A stretch of DNA of 64,000 nt, taken from Escherichia coli (GTDB lineage Bacteria; Pseudomonadota; Gammaproteobacteria; Enterobacterales; Enterobacteriaceae). The stretch lies in assembly GCF_965641715.1 (NCBI RefSeq), contig NZ_OZ282453.1. One strand, given 5' to 3'. Position numbers: made by a program. Of the stretch, positions 23,101 to 26,100 are shown in pieces. Position 1 is the stretch's first letter; every line of letters begins with the position of its first letter.

Positions 23101-26100
23101 TATAATGCGTTTAAATATGCCGTCTTATATAAAATGATGGTCAGATTAATATGCGGATTATCTTTCTACGCAAGGAGTATTTATCTCTACTCCCGTCAAT
23201 GATTGCATCTCTTTTCTCTGCTAACGGTGTCGCGGCGGCCATTGATTCATGCCAGGGATATGATATCAAAGCGAGTTGTCACGCCAGCAGGCAAAGCCTT
23301 TCAGGCATTACGCAGGTCTGGAGTATCGCCGATGGGCAATGGCTGGTTTTTTCGGATATGACCAATAATGCCAGCGGTGGGGCCGTATTTTTGCAACAAG
23401 GAGCGGAATTTACATTATCACCAGAAAATGAAACTGGAATGACTCTGTTTGCCAATAACACCGTTTCAGGAGAATATAATAACGGCGGGGCAATATTTGC
23501 TAAAGAAAACTCAACGCTGAATCTTACGGATGTTATTTTTTCTGGTAACGTCGCAGGCGGCTATGGTGGCGCAATCTATTCTTCTGGTACTAACGATACC
23601 GGTGCCATCGATTTACGTGTCACTAACGCCGTGTTTCGCAATAACATCGCTAATGACGGCAAAGGTGGTGCAATTTATACCATCAATAATGATATCTATT
23701 TAAGTGATGATGTTTTTAACAATAACCAGGCATATACATCAACAAGTTACAGTGATGGCGATGGCGGCGCAATCGATGTCACAGATAATAATAGCGACAG
23801 CAAGCATCCTTCAGGTTATACGATAATAAATAACACCGCATTTACAAATAACACTGCCGAAGGTTATGGCGGGGCGATTTATACCAATAGTGTGACGGCT
23901 CCCTATCTTATTGATATTTCAGTTGATGACAGCTACAGCCAGAACGGCGGCGTGTTAGTCGATGAGAACAATAGCGCAGCAGGCTATGGAGATGGTCCTT
24001 CCTCTGCGGCGGGTGGCTTTATGTATCTCGGCTTAAGTGAAGTTACATTTGATATTGCCGACGGAAAAACGCTGGTTATTGGCAATACAGAGAATGACGG
24101 AGCTGTTGACTCTATTGCTGGTACCGGGGTAATCACCAAAACAGGTTCCGGCGATCTGGTACTTAATGCAGATAACAATGACTTTACTGGTGAGATGCAG
24201 ATTGAAAACGGTGAAGTTACCCTGGGCCGCAGCAACTCCCTGATGAATGTCGGCGATACGCATTGCCAGGACGATCCGCAAGACTGCTACGGTCTGACGA
24301 TAGGGAGTATTGATAAGTACCAGAATCAGGCAGAGCTAAATGTTGGCTCCACCCAACAAACCTTTGTGCACTCATTGACGGGCTTTCAGAATGGCACTTT
24401 AAATATCGATGCTGGTGGCAATGTTACTGTTAATCAAGGCAGTTTTGCTGGCACCATCGAAGGTGCTGGTCAGCTCACCATTGCGCAAAACGGCAGCTAT
24501 GTGCTGGCGGGGGCGCAGTCGATGGCGCTAACCGGCGATATAGTGGTGGATGCTGGTGCGGTGCTTTCGCTGGAAGGCGACGCGGCAGATCTTGCCGCTC
24601 TCCAGGACGATCCGCAGTCGATCGTGTTAAACGGCGGTGTGCTCGATCTCTCTGATTTCTCCACCTGGCAGAGCGGTACATCATACAAAGATGGCCTTGA
24701 AGTCAGTGGCAGCAGCGGAACGGTTATCGGCAGTCAGGATGTGGTAGATCTTGCAGGCGGAAACGATATGCATATCGGCGGCGACGGGAAAGATGGCGTC
24801 TACGTGGTGATCGATGCGGGTGACGGGCAGGTCAGCCTGGCAAATGACAATCAATACCTCGGCACAACGCAAATCGCTTCCGGTACGCTGATGGTGAGCG
24901 ACAACTCGCAGCTTGGAGATACCCATTATAACCGCCAGGTTATCTTTACCGATAAGCAACAAGAAAGCGTGATGGAGATTACTGCCAATGTCGATACTCG
25001 CTCTACAACGACTGAGCATGGGCGTGATATTGAAATGCGCGCCGACGGTGAAGTGGCAGTTGATGCGGGGGTAGACACGCAGTGGGGCGCACTGATGGCT
25101 GACAGCAGCGGGCAGCATCAGGATGAGGGTAGCACATTGACGAAAACGGGGGCGGGTACGCTGGAGCTGACCGCCAGCGGTACAACGCAGTCGGCAGTAC
25201 GTGTCGAAGAAGGCACCCTGAAAGGCGATGTTGCGGATATCTTTCCTTATGCTTCGTCACTGTGGGTCGGTGATGGGGCGACGTTCGTTAGTGGCGCGGA
25301 TCAGGATATTCAGTCAATTGATGCTACTTCCAGCGGCACTATCGACATTAGCGATGGTACGGTTTTGCGCCTGACCGGGCAGGATACTTCCGTCGCCCTT
25401 AATGCCTCACTGTTTAACGGCGATGGGACGCTGGTGAATGCCACCGATGGCGTGACGCTGACAGGCGAGCTTAATACCAGCCTTGAAACTGACAGCCTGA
25501 CTTATCTTGCCGACGTGACGGTTAATGGCAATCTGACCAATACGTCCGGTGCGGTTAGCCTGCAAAATGGCGTCGCTGGCGATACGCTGACGGTAAACGG
25601 TGATTACACCGGCGGCGGTACGTTACTGTTCGACAGCGAATTAAACGGCGATGACTCAGCAAGCGACCAGTTGGTGTTGAACGGTAATACTGCTGGCAAC
25701 ACAACTGTGGTGGTTAACTCCATTACAGGGATTGGCGAGCCGACCTCAACGGGTATTAAAGTGGTTGATTTCGCAGCTGATCCCACGCAGTTTCAAAACA
25801 ATGCGCAGTTCAGTCTGGCAGGCAGCGGCTATGTCAATATGGGAGCGTATGACTACACGCTGGTGGAAGATAACAACGACTGGTATCTGCGATCGCAAGA
25901 AGTAACGCCGCCATCGCCACCTGATCCAGACCCGACTCCCGATCCTGATCCCACGCCGGATCCTGATCCAACACCCGACCCGGAACCTACGCCTGCTTAC
26001 CAGCCGGTGCTGAATGCCAAAGTTGGCGGTTATCTCAATAACCTGCGGGCGGCAAATCAGGCGTTTGTGATGGAGCGACGCGATCACGCTGCTGGCGATG

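What the first reader, a model, noticed from the sequence alone, without database searches (positions are those of the whole stretch)
25906..25995. Pro-Asp-Thr tandem repeat in the YfaL passenger-barrel linker
The DNA encodes PPSPPDPDPTPDPDPTPDPDPTPDPEPTP with an 18-nt periodic unit (ccXgaYccZgatccNacN). Short in-frame repeats in autotransporter linkers are prone to slipped-strand expansion or contraction, altering passenger projection length without frameshift.
Basis: seen in the sequence. Interest (0 to 1): 0.3.

Follow-up and report, generated by a model that had tools for sequence, protein, structure and literature searches.

The report
Proline-rich spacer repeat in YfaL adhesin
A short proline-aspartate-threonine repeat sits between the surface-exposed part and the membrane anchor of the E. 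coli adhesin YfaL; its length does differ between strains by rare in-frame gains and losses, but it is an ordinary, slowly evolving spacer rather than a fast genetic switch.

Summary
Window 25908-25994 (+) encodes PPSPPDPDPTPDPDPTPDPDPTPDPEPTP, aa 920-948 of a 1250-aa ORF (23151-26903). That ORF is yfaL/ehaC, an AIDA-I-type autotransporter.

The tract lies between the autochaperone domain and the alpha-helix that plugs the 12-strand barrel. It is the only low-confidence coil in an AlphaFold model of the C-terminal part.

The tract is 100% identical to that of E. coli K-12, and about 2,100 of 5,426 complete E. coli genomes carry it at 99% identity or better.

Length does vary between strains. 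Two evenly spaced samples of 60 genomes each gave:
- same length: 77
- -18 nt: 27
- +6 nt: 8
- -24 nt: 3
- -36, -15 and -9 nt: 1 each

Rare extremes also exist: a perfect +18 duplication, and a 168-nt deletion between 12-nt direct repeats. All changes are in frame and inside the tract.

Slippage signatures are present. One is a perfect unit duplication. The others are haplotype pairs identical for roughly 2 kb except for one unit.

The window's units are degenerate at the DNA level (12-15 of 18 nt identical; longest exact repeat 11 nt), and alleles are fixed within lineages. So this is a slow polymorphism, not a contingency locus. Similar acidic X-Pro tracts occupy the same slot in paralogous autotransporters and in TibA.

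Verdict: known kind of feature, low interest.

The parts
23151..26903 (+). yfaL/ehaC coding sequence (1250 aa), AIDA-I-type (type Va) autotransporter adhesin
   Evidence: ORF list, translation, Pfam PATR, Chlam_PMP, AC_1, Pertactin and Autotransporter domains, RefSeq annotation of the homologous place
25530..25862 (+). Autochaperone domain (Pfam AC_1, aa 794-904). The last beta-strand DWYLR (aa 910-914) follows just downstream.
   Evidence: Pfam, alignment to AIDA-I 4MEE and IcsA 3ML3, AlphaFold strands
25908..25994 (+). Proline-rich acidic tract PPSPPDPDPTPDPDPTPDPDPTPDPEPTP (aa 920-948), the feature in question
   Evidence: It is the only coil segment with pLDDT below 50 between the autochaperone domain and the helix.
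25920..25991 (+). Four 18-nt units (25920-37, 25938-55, 25956-73, 25974-91) encoding PDPDPT three times and PDPEPT once. Pairwise DNA identity is 12-15/18.
25941..25969 (+). Pair of 11-nt exact direct repeats GATCCTGATCC (25941-51 and 25959-69). This is the longest exact repeat in the tract, and it brackets the unit duplicated in strain CFS3246.
25777..25788 (+). Upstream copy of the 12-nt direct repeat CTGATCCCACGC. The second copy is at 25945-25956 inside the tract. The 168-nt in-frame deletion of strain VTB97022v runs between them.
   Evidence: Alignment, gene length 3585 nt
26016..26060 (+). Predicted alpha-helical linker (aa 956-970) that sits in the barrel lumen
   Evidence: AlphaFold helix at model residues 173-187, alignment to the AIDA-I transport unit 4MEE
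26115..26900 (+). 12-strand outer-membrane beta-barrel (Pfam Autotransporter, aa 989-1228; strands run to aa 1249)
   Evidence: Pfam, AlphaFold, 4MEE E=3e-36

Best explanation
The repeat encodes a 29-residue acidic X-Pro spacer of the surface adhesin YfaL. It is placed between the last strand of the autochaperone domain (…DWYLRS) and the alpha-helix (AYQPVLNAKVGG…) that runs through the outer-membrane barrel.

Inferred function: with proline at every second position it cannot fold into a globular structure and is expected to be an extended, polyproline-II-like stalk. At 3.1 Å per residue that is about 9 nm, or about 1.9 nm per hexapeptide. The stalk would leave the barrel mouth and hold the base of the beta-helical passenger away from the membrane and LPS surface. 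It may also give slack for the autochaperone domain to fold first during secretion.

Shown here at the DNA level: the GAY-CCN periodicity gives short direct repeats of 5-12 nt, on which rare replication slippage or short-homology deletion produces in-frame gains and losses of 6, 12, 18 and 24 nt. The peptide is kept by purifying selection while synonymous sites have drifted. This has degraded the DNA repeat and made the window's allele stable. The result is a slowly evolving length polymorphism whose alleles are largely lineage-fixed and are also moved around by recombination. It is not a rapid phase- or size-variation switch.
For: Position and disorder:
- Pfam places AC_1 at aa 794-904 and the barrel at 989-1228.
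- In the AlphaFold model aa 919-948 is the only coil with pLDDT below 50, between strand 910-914 and helix 956-970.
- AIDA-I 4MEE aligns on both sides and lacks the tract.

Same slot in relatives:
- Paralogous autotransporters at 30-35% identity carry different acidic X-Pro tracts between WYL(T/R)S and (V/I/L)RPE. They come from E. coli, an E. albertii plasmid, Kluyvera and Budvicia.
- TibA has a 'proline-rich domain' between the junction region and the membrane domain (PMC3835316).

Length polymorphism:
- Indels are all in frame and all inside the tract.
- Samples of 60+60 genomes gave same length 77, -18 27, +6 8, -24 3, and -36, -15, -9 one each.

Slippage signatures:
- A perfect duplication of GATCCTGATCCCACGCCG in strain CFS3246.
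- L018/L020 and L003/L023 differ only by one 18-nt unit, with identical flanks for 1355-1764 nt upstream and 40-598 nt downstream.
- A 168-nt deletion lies exactly between two copies of a 12-nt repeat.

Stability:
- Units are 12-15/18 identical and Pro codons are spread over all four synonyms.
- 2,138 genomes carry the tract at 99% identity or better.
- The tract is 100% identical in K-12 although the flanks differ by 4-6%.
- 168 genomes share the -24 allele.

Selection on the peptide: 8 synonymous against 3 non-synonymous variable codons in the repeat core.
Against: - The spacer or stalk role is inferred from composition and position only. No structure or experiment on this tract was found (searches returned no paper).
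- AlphaFold's low confidence says 'not a folded domain', not 'extended rod'.
- Conservation of Asp and Thr, not merely Pro, suggests the sequence may do more than set a distance.
- Recombination is rampant in yfaL. Part of the apparent recurrence of length changes could therefore be transfer of one allele between backgrounds. The two haplotype pairs share downstream sequence by length class beyond about 430-600 nt.
- Allele frequencies come from systematic samples of a biased genome collection.
Confidence: 0.72

Rival explanations
1. Contingency locus. The tract is a hypermutable in-frame repeat whose copy number changes often within a lineage, giving size or antigenic variation of the adhesin. 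This is the stronger reading of the first reader's note.
For: Many length alleles exist. A perfect one-unit duplication is present in CFS3246. One-unit differences occur on at least two otherwise identical haplotypes. 'Type II' alleles carry a nearly perfect 35-nt tandem duplication, which is a better slippage substrate.
Against: The window allele's units are 67-83% identical with an 11-nt longest exact repeat. About 1,600 genomes have the identical 114 nt, and only one strain among the top-ranked hits shows +18. K-12, O157 and the window share the length despite 4-6% flank divergence. The -24 allele is fixed in 168 genomes. The unit is a multiple of 3, so no on/off switching is possible.
Confidence: 0.08
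2. Old alleles shuffled by recombination. The length classes are ancient alleles of a mosaic gene, and their distribution reflects homologous recombination between lineages, with very few in situ slippage events.
For: yfaL is highly mosaic. It has two deep passenger types (72-79% identity) joined to a 90-95% identical C-terminal part, and nucleotide diversity of 0.05-0.18 along the gene against about 0.02 in ubiG. The +6 ending DPAPDPTP occurs on three different upstream backgrounds. The common -18 allele differs from the window's by two separate indels plus substitutions. Downstream flanks group by length class beyond +430 to +600 nt.
Against: The L018/L020 and L003/L023 pairs would need a crossover within about 49 nt upstream of the tract. 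The CFS3246 duplication sits on a tract otherwise 100% identical to the commonest allele. This rival explains how alleles spread, not how they arose. It is complementary rather than exclusive.
Confidence: 0.15
3. Specific functional motif rather than passive spacer. The PDPDPT units would be a recognition element, for example O-glycosylation of Thr, a processing site, a cation- or LPS-binding acidic strip, or an immunodominant epitope as proposed for pertactin's proline-rich repeats.
For: The peptide is conserved while synonymous sites vary (8 synonymous against 3 non-synonymous variable codons). Asp/Glu and Thr recur in the tracts of distant paralogues. AIDA-I-family passengers can be heptosylated on Ser/Thr (PMC3835316). 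Pertactin's proline-rich repeat regions vary between alleles and are discussed as antibody targets (PMC8931430; PMC3966384).
Against: Nothing in the window points to a modifying enzyme or a partner. Tract sequence differs freely between paralogues apart from its composition. AIDA-I itself works without a tract. Natural alleles tolerate 17 to 37 residues.
Confidence: 0.1
4. DNA-level signal. The cluster of five GATC (Dam) sites in 47 bp would be a SeqA/Dam/MutH-related element, and the protein repeat would be secondary.
For: This is the densest GATC cluster in the 64-kb window: 5 in 47 bp at 25923, 25941, 25947, 25959 and 25965.
Against: Asp-Pro encoded as GAT-CCN produces GATC automatically. 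The GAT share in the tract (5/7) equals the gene-wide share (82/114). Alleles carry anywhere from 2 to 5 GATC, so the sites are not conserved.
Confidence: 0.02

Closest known systems
YfaL/EhaC of E. coli K-12 and O157:H7 (AIDA-I-type autotransporter adhesin, 'Group 8' in PMC9289746)
   Same: Same gene, same synteny (ypaB-yfaL-ubiG-gyrA) and same length (1250 aa). The 99-nt tract region is 100% identical to K-12 and differs by 1 nt from O157.
   Different: The rest of the window's yfaL differs by 4-6% from K-12. The best match in 5,426 genomes is 98.5-99.2% over the region. It is a distinct mosaic allele of a hypervariable gene.
Proline-rich domain of TibA (ETEC self-associating autotransporter), residues 627-677
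   Same: [quoted passage not shown] Both are AIDA-I-type autotransporters.
   Different: The TibA tract is about 50 residues with a different sequence. No direct sequence comparison with TibA was made here. No population study of its length was seen.
Pertactin repeat regions R1 (GGFGP) and R2 (PQP) of Bordetella
   Same: These are proline-rich in-frame repeats in an autotransporter whose copy number differs between alleles and varies on a slow timescale (PMC3966384; PMC8931430). YfaL's C-terminal passenger also matches Pfam Pertactin.
   Different: The paper describes R1 and R2 as loops of the beta-helix, not as a segment between the autochaperone domain and the helix. The unit sequences differ. 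Vaccine-driven selection is proposed for pertactin, and nothing comparable is known for YfaL.
AIDA-I transport unit (PDB 4MEE)
   Same: It is the closest solved structure, aligning over the autochaperone end, helix and barrel (E=3e-36). The conserved motifs WYL(T/R)S and Y(R/Q)P flank the slot.
   Different: AIDA-I has only a short non-repetitive stretch (HLPTSDTRQ) where YfaL has the 29-residue tract.
Extended proline-rich spacers in general (for example the S. mutans P1 adhesin stalk cited in PMC8931430; TonB and OmpA-type hinges from general knowledge)
   Same: Alternating X-Pro composition is expected to give polyproline-II-like extended conformation, and these segments serve as distance-setting elements.
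   Different: No structural data exist for the YfaL tract. The resemblance is by composition only.

Membership tests
Type Va (classical) autotransporter, AIDA-I type: YfaL/EhaC | C-terminal 12-strand beta-barrel (PF03797) preceded by an alpha-helical linker | tested here: met
   PF03797 E=3.6e-33 at aa 989-1228. 4MEE E=3e-36. The AlphaFold model has a helix at 956-970 followed by a barrel of about 12 strands.
Type Va (classical) autotransporter, AIDA-I type: YfaL/EhaC | Beta-helical passenger ending in an autochaperone domain | tested here: met
   AC_1 E=2.4e-18 at aa 794-904, plus PATR, Chlam_PMP and Pertactin matches. IcsA autochaperone structures match.
Type Va (classical) autotransporter, AIDA-I type: YfaL/EhaC | Orthology with yfaL: conserved chromosomal place and near-identity | tested here: met
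   5,419 of 5,426 E. coli genomes match and are annotated yfaL, between ypaB and ubiG-gyrA.
Type Va (classical) autotransporter, AIDA-I type: YfaL/EhaC | Adhesin or biofilm function on the cell surface | not testable with these tools
   Only literature statements were found (PMC9289746).
Contingency locus / phase-variable simple sequence repeat | Perfect or near-perfect tandem DNA repeats | tested here: not met
   In the window allele the units are 12-15/18 identical and the longest exact repeat is 11 nt. TRF reports 75% matches. 'Type II' alleles and CFS3246 do have 35-36-nt (near-)perfect duplications.
Contingency locus / phase-variable simple sequence repeat | Frequent copy-number change within a clone or lineage | tested here: not met
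   2,138 genomes are at least 99% identical over 114 nt, with one strain at +18 among the top-ranked hits. 168 genomes share the -24 allele. A true mutation rate was not measured.
Contingency locus / phase-variable simple sequence repeat | Repeat change switches expression on/off (unit not a multiple of 3, or located in a promoter) | tested here: not met
   The unit is 18 nt (sub-unit 6 nt), and all observed tract indels are multiples of 3 and in frame.
Proline-rich spacer between autochaperone/junction and translocator (as in TibA) | Position between the junction region and the membrane-embedded domain | tested here: met
   TibA description in PMC3835316.
Proline-rich spacer between autochaperone/junction and translocator (as in TibA) | High proline content, non-globular | tested here: met
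   16 of 29 residues are Pro. The tract is coil with pLDDT below 50.
Proline-rich spacer between autochaperone/junction and translocator (as in TibA) | Extended (PPII) conformation that sets a distance | not testable with these tools
   Needs CD, NMR or SAXS, or surface-accessibility experiments.
Generic E. coli MLVA typing loci with 18-bp units (CVN002, CVN007) | Published primers flank the repeat | tested here: not met
   Primers taken from PMC8143711 have no match within 3 mismatches anywhere in the window. The CVN002 reverse primer was not searched.

The most novel reading that the evidence does not exclude
Tract length is a tuned 'molecular ruler'. The lineage-fixed alleles (17 to 37 residues, roughly 5-11 nm if extended) would be selected to match the thickness of each lineage's O-antigen or capsule layer, so that the YfaL passenger is either exposed or masked. 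Slippage would supply the variation on which this selection acts. A second, less likely reading is that the systematic break of Shigella sonnei draft assemblies at this tract reflects real within-culture heterogeneity there.
Probability: 0.1. Interest if true: 0.45.

Novelty: already known. Interest (0 to 1): 0.15.

Why it matters
It matters little. The tract is identical to that of the K-12 reference gene, and proline-rich spacers at this position are described for related autotransporters.

What this check adds is a modest population picture. Length alleles exist, are in frame, arise by slippage or short-homology events, and are mostly stable within lineages.

Practical consequences:
1. YfaL-based surface-display constructs and yfaL/ehaC PCR typing should expect amplicon differences of -36 to +18 nt.
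2. The tract is a natural experiment for asking whether stalk length affects exposure of an adhesin through LPS.
3. Short-read assemblies can break here, as seen in S. sonnei.

Tried and rejected
1. MLVA identity. I suspected the tract might be one of the generic E. coli MLVA loci with 18-bp units (CVN002 or CVN007). The primers from PMC8143711 that I searched are absent from the window, so this was rejected.

2. GATC/Dam cluster as a DNA signal. It is the densest cluster in the window, but it is explained by Asp-Pro codons and is not conserved among alleles. Rejected.

3. Literature on a YfaL proline-rich tract or repeat polymorphism. No paper in the searchable library holds 'YfaL' together with 'proline-rich' or 'tandem repeat'. 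Two likely relevant papers are not held: Drobnak et al. 2015 on linker nomenclature and Ko et al. 2012 on YfaL display.

4. IS insertion or large expansion in Shigella sonnei as the cause of contig breaks at the tract. Contig ends carry normal tract sequence, and only about 15 nt would be missing. There is no sign of an IS, and the cause is left open.

5. Counting alleles through BLAST identity bands. This works only roughly, so frequencies are given from two systematic 60-genome samples rather than a full census.

6. The 113-aa ORF on the minus strand across the tract (25746-26087) was treated as a by-product of the GC-rich Pro codons and was not pursued.
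Full report
**Observation**

The window at 25800-26100 reads …CAAGAAGTAACG CCG CCA TCG CCA CCT GAT CCA GAC CCG ACT CCC GAT CCT GAT CCC ACG CCG GAT CCT GAT CCA ACA CCC GAC CCG GAA CCT ACG CCT GCT TAC CAG…. 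It lies in the frame of a 1250-aa ORF, 23151-26903 on the + strand.

Codon-exact coordinates are 25908-25994 (aa 920-948). Tandem Repeats Finder gives period 18, 3.9 copies and 75% matches over 25923-25993.

The four units encode PDPDPT three times and PDPEPT once. At the DNA level they are only 12-15/18 identical, and the longest exact direct repeat is 11 nt (GATCCTGATCC at 25941 and 25959). Pro codons are spread evenly over CCT, CCG, CCA and CCC. Proline makes up 55% of the tract against 2.5% of the protein.

**What the gene is**

Pfam finds PATR and Chlam_PMP repeats, an autochaperone domain AC_1 (aa 794-904), a Pertactin-type C-terminal passenger (811-914) and the Autotransporter beta-domain (989-1228).

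The homologous place is annotated 'AIDA-I family autotransporter adhesin YfaL/EhaC' in 5,419 of 5,426 complete E. coli genomes, between ypaB and ubiG-gyrA.

The closest solved structure is the AIDA-I transport unit 4MEE (E=3e-36). It aligns on both sides of the tract but has only a short non-repetitive stretch in its place.

An AlphaFold model of aa 784-1250 was built from 18 homologues (mean pLDDT 78). It shows the last autochaperone strand (DWYLR, aa 910-914), then a coil with pLDDT below 50 that coincides with the tract (aa 919-948), then a helix (aa 956-970) and a barrel of about 12 strands. The tract is therefore the segment that leaves the extracellular mouth of the barrel and carries the passenger. 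In strict nomenclature the 'linker' is the helix, not the tract.

**Variation among strains**

A 601-nt query around the tract matches every yfaL-carrying genome once. Identities are only 88-98.5%, so the gene is unusually diverse.

Net length differences were read from two systematic samples, each of 60 genomes taken at even steps down the ranking:

| Net length difference | Genomes (of 120) |
|---|---|
| 0 | 77 |
| -18 | 27 |
| +6 | 8 |
| -24 | 3 |
| -36 | 1 |
| -15 | 1 |
| -9 | 1 |
| -168 | 1 genome, sampled twice |

I fetched 27 representative alleles and aligned them. Every indel lies inside the tract and all are in frame.

The alleles seen, with the length of the stretch from CAAGAA to the Ala codon, are:
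- **99 nt:** the window, K-12 (100% identical), O157 (one Pro→Gln change), and B2-type alleles with a different leader NPTPPP.
- **105 nt:** ending DPAPDPTP, found on three upstream backgrounds.
- **90 nt:** loses PSP.
- **84 nt.**
- **81 nt ('type II'):** PPDPDPDPTPDPDPTPDPIP.
- **75 nt.**
- **63 nt:** type II minus one unit.
- **117 nt:** five units.

More variants appear in wider Escherichia and metagenomic proteins, including two alleles that delete the tract together with the end of the autochaperone domain.

**How the variation arises**

Three results carry a slippage or short-homology signature.

1. Strain CFS3246 (also deposited as 'strain 35') has a perfect tandem duplication of GATCCTGATCCCACGCCG on a tract otherwise 100% identical to the window's. 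This gives five units and a 3771-nt gene.

2. The 81- and 63-nt alleles differ by exactly one 18-nt unit of a nearly perfect 35-nt duplication. Two such pairs, L018/L020 and L003/L023, are identical for 1355-1764 nt upstream and 40-598 nt downstream. The two pairs differ from each other at many upstream sites, the nearest 49 nt from the tract. Either the unit was lost or gained at least twice, or a crossover fell within about 50 nt of the tract.

3. The 168-nt deletion of strain VTB97022v runs exactly between two copies of the 12-nt repeat CTGATCCCACGC. One copy is at 25777-25788 and the other is inside the tract at 25945-25956.

Recombination clearly contributes to the distribution as well. 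The passenger exists in two deep types (72-79% identity) joined to a 90-95% identical C-terminal part. Diversity along yfaL is 0.05-0.18 per site against about 0.02 in ubiG. Beyond about +430 to +600 nt, downstream flanks group by length class. The commonest alternative allele (-18) is not a one-unit loss but -12 and -6 plus substitutions.

**How unstable it is**

The tract is not very unstable.
- A 114-nt query covering just the tract finds 2,138 genomes at 99% identity or better. About 17 of 40 evenly spaced rows are 100% identical, which is roughly 1,600 genomes. These include K-12 derivatives, ETEC H10407 and some O157:H7.
- Among the best-ranked hits only the CFS3246 genome deviates in length.
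- The tract is 100% identical between the window and K-12 although the surrounding 400-900 nt differ by 4-6%.
- The -24 allele is shared at 99% identity or better by 168 genomes.
- In the repeat core of the 99-nt alleles, 8 variable codons are synonymous and 3 are non-synonymous.

The picture is an old repeat whose peptide is maintained while synonymous drift has eroded the DNA repeat. This is the opposite of a contingency locus.

**Likely function (inference)**

Alternating X-Pro sequences cannot form globular structure and tend to polyproline-II conformation, at 3.1 Å per residue (general knowledge). On that basis 29 residues would span about 9 nm and one unit about 1.9 nm. The natural range of 17-37 residues would span roughly 5-11 nm.

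The same slot, between WYL(T/R)S and (V/I/L)RPE or YQP, holds unrelated acidic X-Pro tracts in paralogous autotransporters at 30-35% identity. These come from E. coli, an E. albertii plasmid, Kluyvera and Budvicia. TibA is described as having 'an additional proline-rich domain' between junction and membrane domain (PMC3835316). AIDA-I does without one.

A stalk that lifts the passenger base off the barrel and LPS surface, and perhaps gives slack for the autochaperone domain to fold during secretion, is the most economical reading. It is untested. The conservation of Asp and Thr leaves room for a more specific role.

**Comparison with what is known, and novelty**

The feature is the K-12 YfaL tract itself. 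The kind, a proline-rich spacer in an AIDA-I-type autotransporter, is described for TibA. Copy-number polymorphism of proline-rich repeats in an autotransporter is classic for pertactin (PMC3966384; PMC8931430).

I found no paper on yfaL tract polymorphism. The tract is not one of the 18-bp MLVA loci checked. The allele survey here is a small addition, not a new kind of thing. Novelty is 'already known' and interest is low.

**Things noticed on the way**
- The five GATC sites in 47 bp are the densest cluster in the window. They follow from GAT-CCN codons and vary from 2 to 5 among alleles.
- Hundreds of Shigella sonnei draft assemblies break at or just before the tract, without any IS sequence at the contig ends. 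The cause is unexplained.
- A frameshift allele ends at a TGA inside the tract (P0076, 25 member sequences). Other pseudogene alleles read through the tract in another frame.

Noticed in passing
window 23151-25450 (yfaL passenger) versus 25450-26903: yfaL is a strongly mosaic, hypervariable core gene. Among 20 sequences (the window plus 19 fetched alleles) the passenger falls into two deep types (72-79% identity to the window) joined to a C-terminal part that stays 90-95% identical. Nucleotide diversity is 0.08-0.18 along the passenger against about 0.02 in ubiG. The window's own allele has no match better than 98.5-99.2% over the tract region in 5,426 genomes.
   Followed up: partly
window 25923-25969: Five GATC (Dam) sites lie within 47 bp, the densest cluster in the 64-kb window. 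This is explained by Asp-Pro codons GAT-CCN: the GAT share equals the gene-wide share, and alleles carry 2-5 sites.
   Followed up: yes
L027-L032 (Shigella sonnei contigs); equivalent to window ~25876-26123: Very many S. sonnei draft assemblies break at or just before the tract. N-terminal fragments all start at ADGKTLVIGN and end at variable points, a cluster of 303 C-terminal fragments starts APTPAYQP, and one scaffold has 251 Ns over the region. No IS sequence is present at the ends and only about 15 nt would be missing. The cause is unresolved.
   Followed up: partly
L007 (strain VTB97022v), equivalent to window 25777-25956; also protein P0009: In-frame deletions remove the end of the autochaperone domain together with part or all of the tract. 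One is 168 nt between two copies of CTGATCCCACGC. A metagenomic allele joins …GAYDYT directly to PAYQP. These probably give secretion-defective proteins.
   Followed up: partly
proteins P0076, P0108, P0113, P0120; equivalent to window ~25890-25925: These are pseudogene alleles. P0076 (25 member sequences) appears to have a 1-nt frameshift in CGATCG just before the tract, inferred from its changed C-terminal residues, and stops at a TGA created inside CCACCTGATCC. Other alleles with upstream frameshifts read through the tract in another frame (…RRRRPIRTRLQILIPRRIPTQPPTRNL…).
   Followed up: no
L021 (strain 2014C-3011), downstream of the tract: This allele's gene is 3 nt longer than other 63-nt-tract alleles (3720 against 3717 nt). 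The difference lies somewhere in the barrel-coding part downstream of the tract, so the tract is not the only site of in-frame length change. The pairwise alignment shows 6 gap columns there.
   Followed up: no
window 25746-26087, minus strand: A 113-aa GTG-started ORF lies antisense to the tract and its flanks. It is most likely a by-product of the GC-rich Pro/Asp codons and was not examined further.
   Followed up: no
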